Origin: Chiloscyllium plagiosum
Lineage: Eukaryota
Assembly (NCBI RefSeq): GCF_004010195.1
Contig: NC_057752.1
Location: 7,076,099-7,140,098, forward strand
DNA length: 64,000 nucleotides
Direction of reading: 5' to 3'
Shown here: piece after piece, positions 46,070-55,820 of the stretch
Layout of the letters: every line of letters begins with the position of its first letter
Numbering within the stretch: the first letter of the stretch is position 1
Program-made: the position numbers and the translations under genes
Notes under the pieces: generated by a model
Told to the model about the DNA's origin: nothing
Seen by the model: the letters and a program-made list of their open reading frames with translations, nothing else
The model's database searches: none

Positions 46070-48300
46070 TGGACCAACTCTTTCTCTGGTTACCCTCTTG
46101 CTTCTTATATATGAATAAAAGGCCTTGGGAATTCTCCTTAATTCTGCTCACTAAAGTTATTTCATGATCCCTTTTAGCCCGCTTGATTCTTCATTTAAGA
46201 TTGGTCCTACTCCCGTGATATTTCTCCAAGGCCCGTTCTGTTTTTAGCTGCCTGGACCTTATGTACGCTTCCATTTCCTCTTGGCTAGTCGCACGATTTC
46301 TCCTGTCATTCACGGTTCATGAATCTTGCCTTTCCTATCCCTTATTTTCAAAGGGACATGCCTACCCTGCACTATCTTCAACCTATCTATGAAAGCCTCC
46401 CACATATCAAATGTGGACTTCCTTTCAAATAGTTGCCCCAAATCCACATTTCCCAGCTACTGCCGAATTTTGATATAATTGATCTTGGCCCAGTTTAGTA
46501 CTCTTCCCTTAGGACCATTCTCACCTTTGTCTACAAGTATTTTAAAACTTACAGAATTGTGGTCACTATTCCCAAAGAAATCCCCCAGTGCAACTTCTAC
46601 CAACTGGGCTGGCTCATTCCCCAACACCAGGTCCAATATGGCCCCTTCCCTAGTTGGACTATTGACATACTGCTCTAGAAACCTTTCCTAGATGCTCCTT
46701 ACAAATTCTGCCCCATCCAGACCTCTGACACTAAGTGTATCCCAGTCAATGTTGGGAAAATTAAAACCTCCCATCACTACCGCCCTGTTGCCTCTACATC
46801 TTTCCATAATCTGTTTACCTATTTGTTCTTCTACCTCACACTCACTTATTTGTTCTTCTACCTCACACTCACTGTTGGGAGGCTTGTAGTACAGCCCCAA
46901 CAATGTAACTGAACCCTTCTTTTTTCTCAACTCTATCCATAATGCCTCACTGCTCAAGCCCTTCAGAGTATCCTCCTTTAGCACAGCCGTGATATCATCC
47001 CTGACCAGCAATGCAACTCCTCCCCACCTTTTACTTCCCTCCTTGTCCTGCTTGAGGCATCCATATCCTGGAACATTTAGTTGCCAATCATGCCCTTCCT
47101 TCAACCAAGTGTCTGTGATGGCAATAATGTCATTCTCCCAGGCACCAATCCAAGCCCTAAGTTCATCTGCCTTACCCACTATACTCCTTGCATTAAAATA
47201 TATGCACTTCAGACCACCAGTTCCTTTGTGTTCATCTGCTCTCTGCCTACTCTTCCCCTTGGTAATGCTAACTTCATGAGCCTTACAGTCTCTAGTTTCC
47301 ACCTCACTGTCTACTAGTCTTCTCTTCTGGTTCCCAGCCCCTTGCTACATTAGTTTAAACTCTCCCCAACAGCAGTGGCAAAAACTCCTCCAAGGACATT
47401 AGTTCCAGTCTAGTTCAGGAGTAGACCATCCGATTTGTAATAGCCCCACCTTCCCCAGAACCGGTCCCAATGTCCCACAAATCTGAACCCCTCCCACCTA
47501 CACCATCCCTCAAGCCACGTGTTCATCCTGCCTAATCTTTCATTTCTACCCTGGCTAACACGTGGCACTGGTAGTAATCCTGAGATCATTATCTTTGAGG
47601 TCCTCCTCTTTAAATTCTCTCCTAGCTCCCTGAATTCTGCTTTCAGGACCTCATCTCATTTTTTACTTATATCATTGGTCCCTATATGCACCACAACAAC
47701 TGGTTGTTCACCACCACCGCCCCTCCAAAACGGTATACCTGTTTTGGAGGGAGATGACCGCAGGGGACACCTGCACTGCCTTCCTACTCTTTCTCTGCCT
47801 TTTGGTCACCCATTCACTGTCCCCCTCAGCAATTCTAATCTGCGGTGTAACCAGTGCACTAAACGTGCTATCTATGAGCTCCTCAGCATCACGGATGCTC
47901 CACAGTGAGTCCATCCGCAGCTCCAGAGCCGTCATGCGGTCAAACAAGAGCTTCAGCTGGACACATTTCTTGCAAGTGTAAGAGCCAGGGACGTCAGCCA
48001 CGTCCCTGAGCTCCCACATCAGGCAAGAGGCACATGCCGCAGGTCTGAGGTCCCCTGCCATTGTAAGCATTAGCTTTAACTCAACTAACTAAAACCAAAC
48101 AATGCACTTAAATATATGAGAAAAGAAAAAAACCTTACCTTACACAGTCCTTTTCTTCTGGTTAGGTTGGGGGAAGGGAGATACTACATGTGTAGTATCT
48201 CGGGTTTAGCCACTGCCCAAGTACATACTAAGTCCTTAGCTTCCCGGCAACCTCCTGGTCTCCAACGTCACCTCAGCTCTGTCTCCCGCTGCTCCCGGAT
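46070..48300 (-). mobile_element. CR1 LINE 5' portion (ORF1 zinc finger/coiled coil + AP endonuclease)
   Basis: CASCLMWELRD...YTCKKCVQLKLL (ORF1); CIYFNARSIVGKADEL...IIAITDTWL...GGGVALLV-like...FNFPNIDW (APE). Confidence 0.9.
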
Positions 48301-48669
48301 GATAATCATGCTTGATTATTTCCAAATGACCCTCCAGGTTCACATACAATGAAAAGGCAAGCAGAACAGTTAGATCAGGCTATGAATTCATTGACACAGA
48401 AATGGCTCAAATATAGACTGATGCTCACTGAGCTATTTCAATACTAAGTAGTCAAGTTAAGTAACAAATGTAATTTTTGAGTTGGGTCACAGATTAGATA
48501 AGTAAAATTATAGGTAGTGGAATGTCCCTTTCAAGTTAAATAACAGCTCTTTTGGACACTGAAAGCAACACTGGTCAACTGAACAGCATGCTGGGAATTG
48601 GATCAGGCCAGACAGACAGATATGCAAACTGTTCAGCAGGCCTGTCAGCAATATGGAAAGAAATCAGAG

Positions 48670-49052
48670 CTGCATCAAGCTGAGCGATGACCCTCAGTAC
48701 ACAAACACCAACTGTCACTATGTACAGAGGTTCCACCTTTTTCCAGTGTTATGGAGGATGGGTCTGGCCTCAGCACTGTGGAACATTCCAAGTAGTTGGA
48801 CTGTCTCATATCACAGTCCTTTGTGGAGAAATTTGTAAAGGAAAACACCTTTGACCACAAGCCCACCAGAAAGTGGTCAGGACGCACTATCCTCGAGACC
48901 CTCCGGGAAAAGGAAGCAGTTGAGTTTGTCGGGTGGTTCGCTGAAGTAAGACTGTCAAAGTCATTTGGCAGAGTGCCTCATCACCAGAACTTTCTAACAA
49001 GCACCAAGATGTAGCTTGGCTGGTGGTGAAAAGGGCACTAACTGTGAGATCC
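48670..49052 (+). mobile_element. Tx1/L1-like LINE ORF2, left part (interrupted by the R2-type insertion)
   Basis: Ends ...KHQDVAWLVVKRALTVRS, which precedes the CCHC knuckle found after 53578. Confidence 0.75.
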
Positions 49053-49153
49053 TTAGCTTTAACTCAATTAACTTATTTGGTTGGTTGGTCTCCCAACGGT
49101 GCCTGTGTAGTCACCTTTGCAATCGTTTCTATGTATCTTATCAGTTGCAAAGT

Positions 49154-49392
49154 TGGTCGAACCTCCACGTGGTTCCCCCTGGAAACGACCTGTGAGAGGA
49201 AGCTCAATAACAGAGGAGTGGTTTTAACTTGTTTAAGAGGTTATATTGCCATGGATTTATCATTGGTTTTATCACTGATTTTATCATTGGTTTTACCTTT
49301 GGTTTTATCCAGTGCTGTATAGCCACTGACAGTTTTAACATTCTCTTTCTGTTGCATAAGCATTACTCTATTCAGGTCGGCTAATACGACCA
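49154..49392 (+). ncRNA. HDV-like self-cleaving ribozyme core (R2 5' UTR)
   Basis: P2 tggtcg(49154-59)/cgacca(49387-92); P3 acc/ggt with L3 tccacgt; P1 3' strand tccccct; P1.1 gg; P4 cgacctg(49186-92)/caggtcg(49373-79); J4/2 gctaata. Confidence 0.85.
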
Positions 49393-49446
49393 GAGAAAAG
49401 ATATGAGGCAGCTGGTGACCTATCGGTCAATGTTAGAAACCTATTT

Positions 49447-52400
49447 TTGGCAGCGGCGATTATGTTGAATTCCAAAATTTCTGATTGGGTGGGAAACCAG
49501 GAAAATAACTGCCCCGCAAGGTTGTTATTGGCGACACCGTGTGCTAAATGTGTTAGCCAAACAAGGACTAGACTATCCATTTCTATGCAAACTGAAGAGA
49601 CCATAATAGTCACTTCGGCACGGCTGCCCTCTGGCAGGCACGAGGAAGCTGGTAGTAAAGTCCAGAGGACTCAGGATCAAGTTCAAATTGAAGGATTCAT
49701 TGAGAAGACCCCTCTAGAATAATCTTGTTCTTTTAATAGCCGGACAATTTTTAGTTCAAATTTTAAAGGGCCCTTTGATTTTAGTCAAATTGGAGAACCA
49801 GAGAGCAATAAAGAGAAAAGTGAGAGTAGGATTATTCATCCTGTTGTTAATGAGAAAGATAAAATAGAAATAATAATAGAATATCCATTAGATAATTTTA
49901 TACGTAAATTTTGTAATAACATTTATAATACGACGGGAATGTTTAGAAAACATTTAAAATTGTGTAAAGGAATTAAAGCTGTGAGAGTTAAATGTAGTAA
50001 ATGCGGCTGGGAGGGTAGTTACCACTCAATCGTGTGTCACTACCCTAAATGTAATAGTAATATAAAAGAGAGGGAAGAAGGTAAATCAGTCCAATGTGAA
50101 ATTTGCCCGATTAGATTTACAACAGCTATAGGTTTAGGACAGCACGAGAGGCACGTGCACCCTAATTTGAGAAATGCTAAAAGAAATAAAGAAAAAAAAG
50201 GTAATTTGGAAAAAGTAGAGAAAGGTAAAAGAGGAGTGTGGTCCAACTCCAAAATAAAAATGTTACAACAATTAGAACAGGAATTTATAGGTTGTAAAAA
50301 TATTAATAAACTTATCGCTGAAAAATTGAAAACTAAGACGTCAAAACAAATTTCCAATAAAAGAAGATTGTTAGTTAAACATAATAAGATTAGCGATAAA
50401 GTTGAGGGCACAAGTCAGGAAGTAGTTCCCATTAATGATAATAGAAGTGAAGAGAATAGTGATCTAGATTTAGATACTCCAATAGAGGAGATAGTAATAG
50501 ATGAGTGTAACCATCAAGGAAATAATAATATTAATGGGAATGGAGAAACTAAAGATGGATCATTAATAGAATTAGTAGACATGATGAAGGACAAAATAAG
50601 GAAAAGCAAATGTATAATAAATGACTATGACAACATTATGGATATGATAATTGGTAAATTAGGGACCAAGGATAAGAGCAATAGGTCAAAGAAATTGAAA
50701 TATAAAAAGGGATTAATTACTAAGCAGAAGGATAGTAGACAAGAAGGTAAGACGAGGGTAAATAATGCTAAAAGAAGATATAGTAGGGAAAAAGGAAAGT
50801 TTAAAGAAACACAGGTTTTATATAAGAATAAAAGACAATATTTAGCTAGAACTATGATGGGAGCTCCAGCTAAATGCGAATGTCCGCTTAGCAAGGAGGA
50901 ATTGGAGGATTATTTTAAAAATAGATTATCTAATCCTAATGATAAAAGTAATTTGAGAGGTTTTGTCAAATATAAAGGTCAAATTGAGGGATCAATGTGT
51001 GACATGCTGACCGGCCCTATAACGGTAGAGGACGTCAATCAGGCCATTAAGGCGATGGACTTTAAAACTGTGGCGGGGCCGGATCAGATGACGCTTAAAG
51101 AAGTGATTAGAATATTTAATAAAGATAATACGATAATCCTCAGAATTTATACCATTTGGTTGAAAACAGGCAGTATCCCTGATATAGTAAAAATAAATAG
51201 AGCAGTATTAATCCCCAAAGTTAGTGATGAGGTTGGGTTAAAGGATTGGAGACCCATCACAATAGGTCCAATTTTGCTTAGGCTTTTAACGAAAATTATA
51301 GCTAATAGGTTAAGTAAAGTTATAAATTTAAATAAACGGCAAAAAGGTTTTATGGCAGGAGTAGCAGGTTGTGAAGAGAACATTAACATTTTGGAGAATA
51401 TCATTAATGGAGCTAAGAAAAAGAAAATCGACACAAATTGATAATAAATGCCCTGAAGAGAACTCAACTCCCTCCAGTTTTTATTAAATTAATTATGAGC
51501 TTATACAATAATAATTTTACTAGGATCGAAGGTTTTAATTGTAAAGCAAATAAGATCAAAATTTTAAGAGGGGTTAAACAAGTACTATTGAAGAAACGAA
51601 AAAAGGAATATTTTTGGGTCAAGATAAAGAGAGTTATCATTGTGTAACCTTAGCGTTTGCCGATGATATAGCTTTGATCAGCCAATCCTATGAAGGAATG
51701 GCATACAATTTAAAACTGATAGAAAAACTTTGTAATAATACTGGGATAGAGGTTAATGTAAGAAAAACAAAAGGATTCTACTTTGCTTATAAAAATAAAA
51801 TTTATAATGATAGGGCAAATTGGAAATTTAATGAGGGAAATATACAGTTTATAGATCCAGGAAGCACCGATAAATACCTTGGTACAAAAATTGATCCATG
51901 GATTGGGGTAAGCCAATTGAACTGGGAAGACCAATTAGGTATTTGGATAGATAATCTTAAAGGATCTCTTTTAAAACCTGTACAGAAATTGGAACTCTTT
52001 AAAGTGTATTTTATCCCTAGACGTTATTACTATTTAATTTTATCGGAAGTATCATTAAACTATCTTAATAAACTAGATAATATAATTAAAAGTGCAGTAA
52101 AAGAAATATTACATCTCCCACAATCCATCACAGATGGGTTTTTATATACTAAGACCCGTGATGGTGGCCTTGCGTTGAATAAACTGTCTACATTTATTCC
52201 AATTACTATTTTAAGGAAATATGAAATGCTATACAAATCCGAGGATGAAATTTTACATGCCTCATTTTCATTCGAGGGTGTTAGTATCGATACAAAAATG
52301 CAATAACTTAGTAAATTGAAAGTTTTAGAGAAGATTTAGAATCCAAATATAAATTGACAATTGGAAGAAATGGATATCACTCATGAGGAGAATTATGGTA

Positions 52401-53170
52401 TAGAGGAATTTAGTAATAAGAACGATACCAACTGGAGGTCTATAGAACTTCAGAAATGGATGGCCTTGCCCTGTCAAGGGGCGGGCATCCATTACTTCAA
52501 GAACGATAATTTCTCCAATAATTGGTTGACAAAAATTCAATATATGAAGATGTCCAAAGTAATAAATTCAATTTTATTATGAACGAACTTATATCCTACA
52601 AGGGCGTCTCTAGCTTATGGAAGGTCATTTAACATCAAGAATTGTCGGCGATGCAATGATAACTCAGAAACGATTGCGCATATTTCAGGATGGTGTCCCT
52701 ATGCAAAACATATGAGGATTAAGAGACACAATAGAATAATGGAAGAACTAATAAAGTTTATCAAGATAAAAGGATGGATAACATACGTGGAGCCACGCAT
52801 AAAAGATAACACTGGGAAATTATGGATACCAGATTTTTGGATACCAGATTTAATTTTTAAGAAGGAAAATCATGTTATCGTGGTAGACGTAACGATTAGA
52901 ATGGACATGCAAATTAACTCACTGGAACAGGCTTGGGAAGAAAAGAAAGAAAAATATAAACATCTAGAAAAGGAAATAATGGTCCTTACAAAAGGAACAA
53001 GAATATCCTTTTATGGATTTGTGATGGGATCCCGAGGAAAATGGTTTGAAAAGAACAATTAACTAATGAAAGACCTCGGGATTGAGAAATTTAAAACTTT
53101 TGTTCAAAATATCACACATCTTGTGCTATCTTTGACTCTCGAGCTTTTAAGGATTTTTATGGACTCATAG
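49447..53170 (+). pseudogene. Disrupted R2 polyprotein ORF
   Basis: Collinear fragments 49447-49722, 49939-51441, 51438-51647, 51614-52306, 52361-52582, 52712-53062; final ...RIFMDS* at 53170; stops, frameshifts and two RT deletions. Confidence 0.88.
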
Positions 53171-53577
53171 GATTCTCCATTTGACAGAATTTAATAATTT
53201 TTAATTTTAGATTATTTTAAATAAGGTTTTAGGTTAATTTTAAACTAGTATTAATTTTAAATTAGTATTTTATGATTTTAATATTTTATTAGTAAAAGTA
53301 AATTATTTTAAGTCATTGATTATGGGTGGTGGGTAATATTGGTGTAATATAATTAAAGTGCACGCAACACATAAGAAATGATGAGCGGTAATATAATCGA
53401 ACGGTTGAAAAACCCAGCTCATTCCTCGCTTTATTGATGATTCTGGTTTACAACATTTTATCCTGTTCCTTTTAAGATCATCTGGCTGTGGTTAGCTAGA
53501 TAGGGGTATACTTTTGTTGACGAGCGATGATAAAACTCGAAAAGGACATGATCCATTCATATGGTGAGTGCATGAAA

Positions 53578-54218
53578 TATGCCCAGCATATGCTGCCCTC
53601 AAACCAGTTGCGGGGTGTGTGGGGGGGTAGAGACTGTCACACATCTCCTGTTAGAATGTGCCTTTGCAAAGGAAGTCTAGAGAAAAATGCAGTGGTTTTT
53701 GTCAAGGTTCATCTGGAGCATGATGAGTCGTGATGCAGGACTCCATGCTCTGCAGTCTGTTCCCCAGGATGCACCCCGAGACAAACATCAATTGCACCTG
53801 GAAGACCATCAAATCAGTGAAAGACACTCTTTGGTCTGCCCAAAGCTTGTTGGTCTTCCAGTGCAAAGAGCTGACCTCAACTGAGTGTTACAGACTGGCA
53901 CATTCCAAGGTCCAGGACCACGTGCTGAGGGATGTACAAAAGCTTGGGGAAGCTGCTGCTGACGCGCAGTGGAGAAAGACCACCACCTAAGGTCTTTCTG
54001 CCAAAGTTAAATGGGGTCCGTTCAACTGTAAAGTGCTCGCGTTGTCTCAAATGTAAATGTAAATAGTGTCCTACATAGGTAAGAAATGTCTTTGACCGTT
54101 GCAACCGTCAGATCCAACTTATGTTTTTCTTGACGTGCAAAGACTATATGGAATTGCTGTAGTAGCTGTGTGTGTACAAAATTTTTTTAATTAATAAAGT
54201 CTATTTTTGCAATTAAAA
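53578..54218 (+). mobile_element. Tx1/L1-like LINE ORF2 C-terminus and 3' UTR, right part
   Basis: CPQTSCG...ETVTHLLLEC knuckle; WKTIKSVKDTLWSAQSLLVFQCKELTSTECYRLAHSKVQD (same family as 2566-3019); aataaa at 54193. Confidence 0.85.
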
Positions 54219-54379: not shown

Positions 54380-55820
54380 AAGATTTGGAGGTGCCGGTGT
54401 TGGACCGAGGTGTACAAAGTTAAAAATCACACAATACCAGGTTATAGTCCAACAGGTTCATTTGGAAGCACTAGATTCTGTCAATCCATTTTTAGATGAG
54501 AATCAGTCTGCCCATTGTGGCACTGACAGTCTCACACAGGGCAGCTCACACCTTAAATGCATTATCTGGGTCGACATGGCACCAATTGTTAAAGTTCACT
54601 TGAGAATGTAACTTTGAAATGTTCTGGAATTTACATATGAAAGAACTGAAACCAACATGTTCATTCTAAAAGATTAAAAATCACACAACACCAGGTTATA
54701 GCCCAACAGGTTTAATTGGAAGCACACAAGCTTTCGGAGCGTCGCTCCTTCATCAGGTGATAGTGGAGGGCTCAATCCTAACACACAGAATTTATAGCAA
54801 ACATTTACAGTGTGATGTAACTGAAATTATACATTGAAAAATTGATTGTCTGTTAAGTCTTTCATCTGGTTGAATGCCACGATTAAAAATCACACAATGC
54901 CACTTCTTTCATGTGTAAATCACAAAACCTTTTTTAAAAAGTTGCATTCTCAGGTTAGATGTTAACAATGGTGATAGCTAGACAATATGTTGAAGGTGTT
55001 AGCCCCCTGTGTTCTCTGTCTATGCCATGATGTTTAGATTGATTCTAATCTAAAAAGTGAGATAACGGAGTTTTACATTAATTCATGCAGTTTTTGAGCA
55101 AAGTACAATGTAACCCTGCAAGTACAAATTCACCCCACAAAATATATTTGCGCATGTGGGTCTTTGTCTGTGTGTCTGTCTGGGTTGGGGGGGGTCGTGA
55201 GTGTGAGAAAGTGTATGTGTGTGTGTGTAGTAAGTGTTGAGTGTCTTAAATCTGTGACGGGGTGCATGTGTGAGTGTGTGTGTCTGTAAGGGTGTGTGTG
55301 GGTGTCTGTGTGCGCATCTGTGTGTCCTTGTGTGTGTGTATAGGAGTGTCTGTGTGTATGTGAGAGTGTGTGTGTGTAGGGGTGTCTGTGTATGGGTGTA
55401 TAGTGCAATGGTGGTCACATCAGTTCAGTTTTATCACACTCTAAATTTTTGCTATAAATTCTGTGTGTTAGGATTGAGCCCTCCACTATCACCTGATGAA
55501 GGAGCAAAGCTCCAAAAGCTACTGTGCTTCCAATTAAACCTGTTGGACTATAACTTGGTGTTGTGTGATTTTTAACTTTGTACACTCCAGTCCACGACCG
55601 GCATCTCCAAATCATTCTAAAAGATGAGAGACTTAACAAATAATCCAGGTCTTTTTCAATATATCATTTCAGTTGCATCACACAGTAAACTTTCACTATA
55701 AATTCTGTGTCTTATGATATTATACTCCACAACCACCTGAAGAAGTAGCGCTCCGAAAGCTAATGCTTCCAAATAAACCTGTTGAACTGTAACCTGGCGT
55801 TGTGTAATTTTTAACTTTGT
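54380..55820. mobile_element. Penelope-derived composite (direct and inverted pseudo-LTRs around a TG-rich tract)
   Basis: Repeated ttaaaaatcacac..accaggttatag in both orientations; hammerhead-like cores at ~54724-54760(-), ~55490 and ~55735(+). Confidence 0.7.

What the first reader, a model, noticed from the sequence alone, without database searches (positions are those of the whole stretch)
49053..53577. Near full-length R2-type retrotransposon in a probable shark genome, outside 28S rDNA
Seen: the complete R2 domain order (three N-terminal zinc fingers, Myb, RT, CCHC knuckle, PD..D..K restriction-like endonuclease), a ribozyme-bearing 5' UTR and a ~400-nt 3' UTR. Neither flank is 28S rDNA; both flanks are collinear halves of a Tx1/L1-like ORF2. 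Established: R2 normally inserts at one 28S site (TTAAGG/TAGCCA), and three zinc fingers mark the R2-A lineage used for RNA-templated genome insertion. Inference: this is either an off-target copy of a cartilaginous-fish R2 or a lineage with relaxed or changed target specificity. To my recollection chondrichthyan R2s are poorly documented; this needs checking.
Basis: partly seen in the sequence, partly recalled or inferred. Interest (0 to 1): 0.92.

Follow-up and report, generated by a model that had tools for sequence, protein, structure and literature searches.

The report
Dead shark R2 copy outside rDNA
This is a broken, near full-length copy of a known shark R2 jumping gene that landed in another repeat instead of its usual ribosomal RNA gene target; it is one of many such old stray copies, and three of them hit the same spot in that repeat.

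Summary
Window 49054-53577 (+) is a 4.5-kb R2 element with a 5' UTR, one ORF (three zinc fingers, Myb, RT, CCHC, restriction-like endonuclease) and a 407-nt 3' UTR. It sits cleanly inside a zf-RVT-encoding LINE-type repeat, not in 28S.

- **Lineage:** A-type R2. PDB R2Tg scores 3e-64 against R2Bm 9e-15.
- **Closest relative:** colinear with the bamboo-shark protein chiPu_0022439, published as R2-1_CPu in canonical 28S (PMC13188248, Table S2). Shark R2s are therefore documented.
- **State of this copy:** dead. It has 6 premature stops and two private frameshifting deletions that remove RT motifs A and B. It also lacks the 5' G-run of a candidate HDV-like ribozyme.
- **Family in this genome:** at least 31 R2/28S junctions and 27 independent non-28S junctions.
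- **Off-target junctions:** they keep a 28S-like nick signature (TA in the first 4 nt in 24 of 27; TT just upstream in 12 of 14).
- **Recurrence:** three independent copies occupy the same LINE site.

Best reading: fossil off-target insertions of a 28S-specific R2, which persist because copies outside rDNA escape array turnover. A sublineage with relaxed specificity is not excluded. Moderate interest; a new member of a known kind.

The parts
48668..49053 (+). 5' half of the host LINE-type repeat copy (C-terminal part of ORF2, upstream of its Cys-rich motif)
   Evidence: All 39 other scored genomic copies align from about window 48669 to 49053 at 80-82% identity. An uninterrupted copy, L062, has an open 123-aa frame with Pfam zf-RVT at 40.8 bits.
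49054..49461 (+). R2 5' UTR. The first 21 nt (49054-49074) are a diverged leader or filler, and the family's 5' G-run (GGGGGGATG...) is absent.
   Evidence: Other copies start with a run of 3-8 G followed by (A)ATGTGACTACAG. The alignment including the window row is A1.
49155..49190 (+). Conserved HDV-like ribozyme core: P2 GGTCG, P3 ACC/GGT, L3 TCCACGT, P1 3' strand TCCCCCT, P1.1 GG, P2 3' strand CGACC. There is no P4.
   Evidence: 90.7% of 558 cells are paired, against 32-48% when partners are slid. Covariation is not above shuffles. The MFE fold recovers P1 and the J1/2 hairpins in copy L002. There is no Rfam hit.
49462..53170 (+). Single R2 ORF, broken. Premature stops lie at 49720, 52304, 52337, 52355, 52580 and 53060.
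   Evidence: tblastn of P0001 residues 1-1289 covers 49462-53167 in three frames.
49870..50379 (+). N-terminal DNA-binding region: ZF3 (first Cys lost), ZF2, ZF1 and Myb
   Evidence: Aligns to R2Tg 9dou_A residues 221-391. In the alignment to P0001, CPYC has become RKFC.
51211..51859 (+). Reverse transcriptase core. A 49-nt deletion lies between 51431 and 51432 (motif A, the ..VDLAKAFD.. segment). A 52-nt deletion lies between 51579 and 51580 (motif B, the QGDxLSP segment).
   Evidence: Pfam RVT_1 matches two fragments at 22.8 and 27.9 bits, both below the cut-off. All 12 other copies that span this region in the alignment retain both segments.
52643..52696 (+). CCHC zinc knuckle (CX2CX8HX4C)
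   Evidence: Aligns to R2Tg residues 1192-1344 and to 9nl3_A at 9.4e-38. Translation.
52824..52987 (+). Restriction-like endonuclease (PD..D..K region), with a 15-nt tandem duplication (WIPDF WIPD) at about 52824-52853
   Evidence: The duplication shows as a 5-residue gap against R2Tg.
53171..53577 (+). R2 3' UTR, ending ...TATGGTGAGTGCATGAAA with no poly(A)
   Evidence: The 3' ends of the copies coincide. In 28S-resident copies ...AAA is followed directly by TAGCCAAATGCC.
53578..54024 (+). 3' half of the same host repeat copy. It continues the frame through the Cys-rich ...CGVCGG.ETVTHLLLEC... motif.
   Evidence: Homology to the flanks of the two other R2-bearing copies ends at 54023/54024.

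Best explanation
The element is a dead, near full-length copy of an A-lineage R2 non-LTR retrotransposon. It belongs to the family published from bamboo sharks as R2-1_CPu/CPl. That family normally inserts at the 28S site TTAAGG|TAGCC.

This copy arose by the element's own target-primed reverse transcription at an off-target site. The R2 protein nicked a LINE-type repeat at ..TCCTT|TATGCC.., used the nick to prime cDNA synthesis on the R2 3' UTR, and joined the 5' end with little or no change to the target. It has since decayed.

Such stray insertions are rare per event. They accumulate as fossils because copies outside the rDNA arrays escape the turnover that purges old copies inside the arrays.

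Shown here: R2 identity, the clean insertion, the junctions, the existence of many 28S and non-28S relatives, and the decay. Inferred: the order of nicking and priming (from R2Bm and avian R2 biochemistry), the survivorship argument, and the age.
For: Identity:
- PDB R2Tg 3e-64, 4.4e-47 and 1.3e-37 for three ORF pieces, against R2Bm 9e-15, 3e-15 and 2e-06.
- Colinear with P0001 over residues 1-1289 at 52-66% identity. By eye, P0001's N-terminus equals the R2-1_CPu ORF in Table S2 of PMC13188248.

The family uses 28S:
- The flanks of L020 are LSU rRNA at 1112 and 851 bits.
- 31 of 41 matches to an R2/28S junction probe span the junction.
- 9 of 9 fetched junctions read ...AAA|TAGCCAAATGCC.
- The empty 28S site is canonical.

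Clean insertion: empty repeat copies read ..GAGATCCTTT ATGC.. across the site.

R2-type off-target signature, from 27 independent non-28S 3' junctions and 14 independent 5' junctions:
- TA within the first 4 nt in 24 of 27, against 55 of 312 control windows (p = 5e-14).
- TAG within the first 6 nt in 15 of 27, against 11 of 208 control windows (p = 4e-10).
- TT in the last 8 nt of the 5' flank in 12 of 14, against 18 of 70 control windows (p = 4e-5).
- This fits the R2Bm nick-site motif TTNANN|T, in which T(+1) is essential (passages of PMC10499050).

No poly(A) and a fixed 3' end.

Decay: 6 stops and two private deletions. The nearest copies are 91-94% identical.
Against: - In the tree of 3' ends, only 1 of 19 tips in the window's major clade (L032) is flanked by 28S.
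- Of 28 exact hits to the 3'-end motif, 25 are real R2 ends. Of these 25, 1 is 28S-flanked and 24 are not, and 8 of those 24 belong to one secondarily amplified group. In the assembly, the better-preserved ends are therefore mostly outside 28S.
- The searches score only 40 candidates each (of 114, 167 and 278), and rDNA is usually under-assembled. The 28S to non-28S ratio is therefore not measured.
- The junction motifs were chosen after looking at the data.
Confidence: 0.75

Rival explanations
1. The window belongs to an R2 sublineage whose target specificity was relaxed or shifted. It would insert at short 28S-like sites (..YTT..|TA(G)..) and use one position in a LINE-type repeat as a secondary target. 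An element-encoded ribozyme P1 would free it from 28S co-transcripts.
For: - Only 1 of 19 tips in the window's major clade is 28S-flanked.
- Three R2 copies occupy the same repeat site within about 4 bp.
- They are independent. The junction offsets differ (window CCTTA| and |TATGCC; the C27 copy CCTTCATG| and |CAAGCC). They fall in different clades. The R2 inserts are more alike (91% window vs C5) than their repeat flanks (76.5%).
- Most non-28S copies with a preserved 5' end start at the element's own G-run with no 28S leader.
Against: - The junctions keep the 28S-like TA(G)(C)(C)(A) signature, up to 6 nt. This is easiest to explain by donors or nick preferences tied to 28S.
- A 28S-resident member (L032) lies inside the same major clade.
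- All copies seen are old and broken, so survivorship outside rDNA explains the bias.
- The similarity between the repeat site and 28S is modest: 16 of 27, with the next-best offset at 14 of 27.
- No young burst was seen. The closest pairs are 91-94% identical.
Confidence: 0.2
2. The three R2-in-repeat loci descend from one event. A repeat copy carrying R2 was then duplicated, or retrotransposed as a composite.
For: All three share the same orientation and nearly the same position. Flank homology ends at the repeat's common 3' end (window 54023/54024).
Against: - The junction positions differ by 3-4 nt between the window and the C27 copy.
- The R2 parts fall in different clades.
- The repeat flanks are more diverged (74-76.5%) than the R2 inserts (78-91%).
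- The outer flanks are unrelated.
Confidence: 0.03
3. The element is not R2 but a member of another endonuclease-bearing clade (NeSL, R4, Hero, Utopia), or it was mobilised in trans by another LINE.
For: No RT tree with reference clades was built here.
Against: - All top PDB hits are R2 proteins.
- A Myb domain is present, and family members sit at the R2 28S site.
- The copies have no poly(A) or LINE-type tail.
- Where an empty copy of the target could be compared, as at the window and C27 junctions, there is no long target-site duplication.
Confidence: 0.02

Closest known systems
R2-1_CPu (Chiloscyllium punctatum; NCBI hypothetical protein chiPu_0022439 = P0001) and R2-1_CPl (C. plagiosum), Table S2 of PMC13188248
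   Same: - Colinear single ORF, 52-66% amino-acid identity to the decayed window copy.
- By eye in the supplement rows, the same 5' leader (GGGGGGAT GTGACTACAG...) and the same core (GGTCGAACCTCCACGTGGTTCCCCCTGG.AACGACC).
- The same 3' junction to TAGCCAAATGCC.
   Different: - Those entries are embedded in 28S and have long ORFs. The window copy sits in a LINE-type repeat, is broken, and lacks the G-run.
- The best copy in this genome is 80% identical to P0001, so the host is a related but different species.
R2Tg (zebra finch; PDB 9dou) and the R2 proteins of 9nl2/9nl3/9nl4 (A-lineage R2 used for RNA-templated insertion)
   Same: Same domain order: ZF3-ZF2-ZF1-Myb, RT, linker, CCHC, RLE. E-values down to 3e-64.
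   Different: About 30-45% identity in the alignments shown. The window copy is non-functional. The host is a cartilaginous fish rather than a bird or turtle (the organism of the 9nl entries is recalled, not shown by the tool).
R2Bm (Bombyx mori; PDB 8gh6, 8ibw), D-lineage
   Same: Same RT and RLE core. Its nick-site motif TTNANN|T, with T(+1) essential (PMC10499050 passages), resembles the off-target junction signature found here. Its ribozyme has a long J1/2 and no P4 (PMC3774820 passages), like the fold proposed here.
   Different: It has one N-terminal zinc finger and much weaker similarity (9e-15, 3e-15, 2e-06).
Non-target-specific R2 families R2NS-1_SMed and R2NS-1_CSi (PMC5035012), the cockroach R2-like elements (PMC7650587, abstract only seen) and the sponge R2-homologous elements (PMC13188248)
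   Same: R2-type elements found at sites other than 28S.
   Different: Those families are described as having lost 28S specificity, with some copies more than 98% identical to their consensus. Here the same family has many canonical 28S copies, and the dispersed copies are old.
Non-rDNA R2 copies in Drosophila species, and the single non-28S R2Bm insertion (PMC2718515, PMC10499050)
   Same: Occasional stray insertions of a 28S-specific R2. The B. mori case also retains a nick-site-like motif.
   Different: Few copies are reported there. Here there are at least 27 independent junctions and one recurrent site, in a vertebrate A-lineage family.

Membership tests
R2 non-LTR retrotransposons (lineage A) | Single ORF with N-terminal zinc fingers plus Myb, RT, CCHC knuckle and C-terminal PD-(D/E)xK restriction-like endonuclease, in that order | tested here: met
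   Colinear alignments to R2Tg and to P0001 across all domains. The frame is broken in this copy.
R2 non-LTR retrotransposons (lineage A) | Three N-terminal zinc fingers (ZF3, ZF2, ZF1) | tested here: met
   The region aligns to R2Tg 221-391. ZF2 and ZF1 have all their ligands. ZF3 has lost its first Cys in the window copy, but P0001 keeps it.
R2 non-LTR retrotransposons (lineage A) | Insertion at the 28S site ..CTCTTAAGG|TAGCCAAATGCC.. | tested here: not met
   Not met by the window copy, whose flanks are a LINE-type repeat. Met by the family: L020, 31 of 41 junction-probe matches and 9 of 9 fetched junctions.
R2 non-LTR retrotransposons (lineage A) | Closest sequence relatives are R2 proteins rather than other RLE clades | tested here: met
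   The 3 A-lineage R2 sequences rank first and R2Bm follows in the PDB searches with three ORF pieces. The best database protein is a shark R2 ORF. No tree with NeSL, R4 or Hero references was made.
R2 non-LTR retrotransposons (lineage A) | Defined 3' end without poly(A), set by the 3' UTR used for target-primed reverse transcription | tested here: met
   The 3' ends of 37 distinct junctions coincide at ...GTGAGTGCA(Y)(N)AAA. Protein binding could not be tested.
HDV-like self-cleaving ribozymes (R2 5' end type) | Nested double pseudoknot: 7-bp P1 starting at G1 (G.U), P2, 3-bp P3 with about 7-nt L3, 2-bp P1.1, and a catalytic C in J4/2 | tested here: inconclusive
   The helices can be drawn and are 90.7% paired across 15 copies, against 32-48% when partners are slid. 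Only 2 pairs covary, and that is not above shuffles. There is no P4, and the catalytic C is not assignable with confidence. Rfam finds nothing even at E <= 10. The window copy lacks the P1 5' strand.
Non-target-specific R2 (R2NS type) | No 28S-resident copies, and young near-identical copies at unrelated sites | tested here: not met
   Many 28S junctions exist. The nearest copies to the window are 91-94% identical.
L1/Tx1-type LINE (host repeat) | ORF2 with a C-terminal Cys-rich zf-RVT domain; clade assignment by RT and endonuclease | tested here: inconclusive
   zf-RVT scores 40.8 bits in the uninterrupted copy L062. No RT or endonuclease was recovered: the 2.4 kb upstream of one copy has no ORF of 100 aa or more. 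The PDB search gave no hit.

The most novel reading that the evidence does not exclude
A vertebrate A-lineage R2 sublineage in this shark had loosened target choice. It would have needed only a short nick-site-like motif (..TT..|TA(G)..) plus partial mimicry of the upstream 28S sequence. It repeatedly used one position in the ORF2 tail of an abundant LINE-type repeat as a secondary landing site. A self-contained, P4-less HDV-like ribozyme, with P1 encoded in the element itself, would let it be processed from any host transcript. The dispersed fossils would then be a natural map of what an A-lineage R2 protein needs in order to cut and prime.
Probability: 0.2. Interest if true: 0.6.

Novelty: new member of a known kind. 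Interest (0 to 1): 0.38.

Why it matters
A-lineage R2 proteins are being developed for RNA-templated gene insertion, where off-target choice is the main safety question. This genome holds at least 27 independent natural off-target insertions of such an element. Their junctions share a signature and one site recurs. A full census would give a free, evolution-scale off-target spectrum to compare with biochemical motifs such as the R2Bm nick-site motif.

For genome annotation the result is ordinary.

Tried and rejected
- **Rfam, ribozyme:** searches of the window region, of five loci, and of the best-preserved 5' end at E <= 10 gave no HDV-like or other ribozyme family. A weak SNORD74 match at 49419-49493 (23.3 bits, cut-off 41) is taken as chance.
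- **Pfam:** on the window's ORF pieces it gave only sub-threshold RVT_1 and zf-RVT hits. The PDB and protein-database searches were what identified the element.
- **Intact copies:** none of the first 20 loci has an intact ORF; the longest open frame is 654 aa.
- **Flank homology:** blast of the window flanks against 19 other loci found no shared flank. A common target repeat for the whole family is therefore rejected.
- **Exact 3'-end motif as a census:** 28 hits, of which 3 are unrelated sequence. This is too strict for decayed copies.
- **28S mimicry of the repeat site:** the best ungapped match of the 28S -30..-4 segment in the 835-nt repeat copy falls exactly at the insertion site, but only at 16 of 27 (next 14). 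A 17-mer ranks second. Suggestive only, and the register was chosen after seeing the alignment.
- **Host repeat clade:** the sequence upstream of one copy had no LINE ORFs and the PDB gave no hit.
- **Earlier notes of this scan:** nothing on R2 and nothing similar to the repeat flank.
- **Literature:** three searches for non-28S R2 copies turned up no description of dispersed R2 copies or a LINE hotspot in sharks. These searches cover only the held library.
Full report
**What is there**

The window lies in a 3.56-Gb assembly. A search of that genome with window 49053-53577 gave 62 matching pieces (278 candidates, 40 scored) at 69-93% identity on many contigs. Blast of the window element with 1.5-kb flanks against the 19 other fetched loci showed homology only between 49075 and 53581 and no shared flanks.

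Other copies carry a further 5' leader that starts with a run of 3-8 G followed by (A)ATGTGACTACAG. In the window the corresponding 21 nt (49054-49074) are diverged and the G-run is missing. It is AT-rich, at 29-36% GC against 41-50% in the flanks.

**Identity**

The ORF pieces hit solved R2 proteins:
- Piece 49723-51441 gives R2Tg (9dou_A) 3e-64, 9nl3_A 1e-63, 9nl2_A 6e-55 and R2Bm 8.9e-15.
- Piece 51578-52306 gives 3.4e-47 to 7e-47 for the three A-lineage entries and 3.2e-15 for R2Bm.
- Piece 52583-53062 gives 9.4e-38 for 9nl3_A and 2.2e-06 for R2Bm.
- Two short pieces map colinearly, one of them weakly at E = 0.58.

Together they cover R2Tg residues 221-391 (three zinc fingers and Myb), 535-767, 787-837, 857-1078, 1138-1183 and 1192-1344 (CCHC and endonuclease).

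The best protein in the large collection is a 1289-aa 'hypothetical protein chiPu_0022439 [Chiloscyllium punctatum]' (2.1e-174; 6 proteins with E <= 1e-10 among 4573 candidates). tblastn shows it colinear with window 49462-53167 over residues 1-677, 696-745 and 763-1289, at 52%, 66% and 66% identity. This sets the ATG at 49462, the true stop at 53168-70, the 5' UTR at about 408 nt and the 3' UTR at 407 nt.

**State of the copy**

There are six premature stops, at 49720, 52304, 52337, 52355, 52580 and 53060. Two deletions are private to this copy:
- 49 nt between 51431 and 51432.
- 52 nt between 51579 and 51580.

All 12 other copies that span this region keep the missing segments, which encode the RT motif with ..VDLAKAFD.. 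and the motif QGDxLSP... A 15-nt tandem duplication sits in the endonuclease, and ZF3 has lost its first cysteine. The copy cannot encode a working protein. None of the first 20 loci has an intact frame; the longest is 654 aa.

**The flanks**

The 5' flank matches an abundant repeat: 2934 candidates, 40 scored including the window itself, and the other 39 align from about 48669 to 49053 at 80-82%. Three uninterrupted copies read straight through the site..CCTGTGAGATCCTTT ATGCACGCCCGG...

In the window the 5' flank ends ..GAGATCCTTA and the 3' flank starts TATGCCC. The insertion is therefore clean, with at most 1-2 bp of change. Uninterrupted copy L062 has an open 123-aa frame across the site with Pfam zf-RVT (40.8 bits, cut-off 27.5). 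The flanks are thus colinear halves of a LINE ORF2 tail.

I could not assign the clade. The 2.4 kb upstream of one copy has no ORF of 100 aa or more, and the PDB search found nothing.

**The family and 28S**

Locus L020 is flanked on both sides by LSU rRNA (1112 and 851 bits). An empty 28S unit in this genome reads ..GGGAGTAACTATGACTCTCTTAAGG TAGCCAAATGCC...

A probe made of 200 nt of R2 3' end plus 200 nt of 28S gave 41 matches (167 candidates, 40 scored):

| Class | Matches |
|---|---|
| Span the junction, on many chromosomes and small contigs, 82-100% identity (probe locus included) | 31 |
| 28S only | 4 |
| R2 only | 5 |
| Fragment | 1 |

Nine fetched junctions all read ...GTGAGTGCA.(N)AAA followed by TAGCCAAATGCC. 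In two of these loci the 28S continues for 766 and 552 nt and then breaks. Many of these are therefore dispersed, decaying rDNA fragments.

A protein search of the genome with P0001 found copies at up to 80% identity, and several long open frames (1277, 1276 and 1196 aa, with 1, 1 and 0 stops). One of these is on a contig whose R2 3' end joins 28S. The host is thus related to, but is not, the source species of P0001. This fits a shark or other cartilaginous fish. Earlier notes of this scan say the same but are unchecked.

**Copies outside 28S**

A 350-nt probe from the window's 3' end gave 40 scored places out of 114 candidates. From these and earlier loci I read 37 distinct 3' junctions:
- 3 are in 28S.
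- 8 share one non-28S flank.
- 2 share another.
- 3 lie in the same repeat as the window.

The group of 8 grew to 11 with later fetches. Two of its copies, on contig C8, begin at the same R2 position, 2528. I take the group as one insertion amplified secondarily.

Counting each such group once and adding one new junction gives 27 independent non-28S junctions. Their signature is as follows.

| Feature | Observed | Control windows | Fisher p |
|---|---|---|---|
| TA within first 4 nt after the terminal A-run | 24 of 27 | 55 of 312 | 5e-14 |
| TAG within first 6 nt | 15 of 27 | 11 of 208 | 4e-10 |
| TT in last 8 nt of the 5' flank | 12 of 14 | 18 of 70 | 4e-5 |
| CTT in last 8 nt of the 5' flank | 6 of 14 | 7 of 70 | 0.0065 |

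Up to six letters of TAGCCA occur at the 3' junction. I chose these motifs after seeing the data.

They resemble the 28S nick site. They also resemble the R2Bm motif TTNANN|T, in which T(+1) is essential (PMC10499050, passages). Two mechanisms could produce this and I cannot separate them:
- The endonuclease may prefer nick-site-like sequences.
- Templates may carry a few 28S letters past the 3' end.

**A recurrent site**

A probe spanning the window's 3' junction (200 nt R2 plus 150 nt repeat) found only three of 40 scored places that extend into the repeat: the window, C27:9401670 and C5:119994535. These are independent events:
- In the C27 copy the 5' flank runs to ..CCTTCATG and the 3' flank starts CAAGCC. 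In the window these are ..CCTTA and TATGCC.
- In a FastTree of the last 800 nt (40 sequences; 2 short rows dropped), the window and the C5 copy lie in one clade with four unrelated-site copies, and the C27 copy lies in another.
- The R2 inserts are more alike than their repeat flanks: 91% against 76.5% for window vs C5, and 78-82% against 74% for window vs C27 (flank values).
- Flank homology stops at the repeat's own 3' end (window 54023/54024).

The site shows some likeness to the upstream half of the 28S target. TAACTGTGAGATCCTTA matches TAACTATGACTCTCTTA at 12 of 17. The 27-mer covering 28S -30..-4 has its best ungapped match in the whole 835-nt repeat copy exactly at the insertion point, at 16 of 27 with the next best at 14. 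This is modest, and the register was picked after the fact. A-clade N-terminal regions bind only the upstream half-site (PMC11204384, passages), which makes upstream mimicry a reasonable but unproven cause.

**The 5' UTR**

Across 15 copies one can draw an HDV-like fold:
- P1: GGGGGGA with TCCCCCT, with G1.U.
- J1/2: about 100 nt, with hairpins.
- P2: GGTCG with CGACC.
- P3: ACC with GGT.
- L3: TCCACGT.
- P1.1: CC with GG.
- An AAA linker in place of P4.

90.7% of 558 cells pair, against 32-48% when the partners are slid. Only 2 pairs change on both sides, and no measure exceeds the shuffles. The structure was also derived from these same sequences. RNAfold recovers P1 and the J1/2 hairpins in copy L002, with z = -1.71 and 10 of 200 shuffles as good. 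Rfam finds nothing.

A long J1/2 and a missing P4 have precedent in the silkmoth R2 ribozymes, which do cleave (PMC3774820, passages). The same core letters appear in the R2-1_CPu and R2-1_CPl rows of the 2026 supplement (by eye). The family probably has such a ribozyme. The window copy lacks its 5' strand.

**Literature**

- PMC5035012 (passages): lists R2Sqj from an angel shark and describes two R2 families without target specificity.
- PMC13188248 (passages, plus 4 rows shown of 15 occurrences of 'Chondrichthyes' in Table S2; files 13-16 not searched): reports chondrichthyan R2s of both lineages. The rows seen are the small-spotted catshark, the great white shark and two bamboo sharks, the last two with 28S junctions. 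The R2-1_CPu ORF begins with the same residues as P0001.
- PMC2718515 (passages): reports R2 copies outside 28S in five Drosophila species.
- PMC10499050 (passages): says non-28S R2Bm insertions are rare.

My three searches found no account of dispersed R2 copies or of a LINE hotspot in sharks. Repbase and Dfam could not be consulted.

**Verdict**

This is a real R2, correctly delimited, in a family that is already published and that uses the canonical 28S site. The window copy is an old, dead off-target insertion. The points worth keeping are the size of the off-target fossil record, its shared junction signature, and the thrice-hit repeat site.

Results that lean towards relaxed specificity are reported above: 1 of 19 tips in the window's major clade is 28S-flanked, and 24 of 25 well-preserved 3' ends lie outside 28S. 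They keep that reading alive at about one in five.

Noticed in passing
G000 C8 (for example 32270699-32272696, 53742140-53744105, 35522687, 9495420, 32247062) and small contigs; loci L046, L048, L049, L053-L055, L057, L059, L071, L072, L075: At least 11 copies of an R2 3' fragment share the same downstream flank (GTATGGAAAATCGACACGCCCCC...). The two C8 copies seen also start at the same R2 position, 2528. This looks like one insertion amplified later as part of a larger repeat or tandem unit.
   Followed up: partly
31 places in G000, for example C26:15869803-15870220, C37:6082634-6083047, C16:31957558-31957975; loci L066, L067, L076-L084: R2-bearing 28S fragments are dispersed over many chromosomes at 82-89% identity to the probe. 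In two of them the 28S runs on for 766 and 552 nt and then breaks, once at a tRNA-like SINE. These are orphan rDNA pieces carrying R2.
   Followed up: partly
G000 C101626:27960-31784, C16:22317891-22321697, C20:54987982-54991485: These R2 copies have long open frames (1277, 1276 and 1196 aa; 1, 1 and 0 stops in the matched part) at about 60% identity to P0001. The first joins 28S at its 3' end. They belong to other R2 sublineages than the window copy.
   Followed up: no
window 46457-47344 and 47410-48088, minus strand: Open frames of another retroelement lie just upstream of the host repeat. One reads like an apurinic-type endonuclease start (..CIYFNARSI..DIIAITDTWL..). The label comes from reading the translation, not from a search.
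   Followed up: no
window 55083-55424: A CA/TG-rich low-complexity stretch gives long His/Thr- or Cys/Val-rich frames on both strands.
   Followed up: no
R2 5' leader against 28S -28..-22 (L068, L060, alignment A1): The element's first letters, GGGGGGA, resemble the 28S segment GGCGGGA that starts exactly 28 nt upstream of the insertion site. Many R2 ribozymes cleave at that position (PMC3774820). The leader might be an internalised copy of that P1 strand. This is speculative.
   Followed up: no
loci L036 (C11:91287326) and L034 (C100076:33321): Two R2 copies share the same non-28S flank (TAAAC.ATCTCACA.GTGGTCATGA...). This is probably a duplicated locus or an allelic contig.
   Followed up: no
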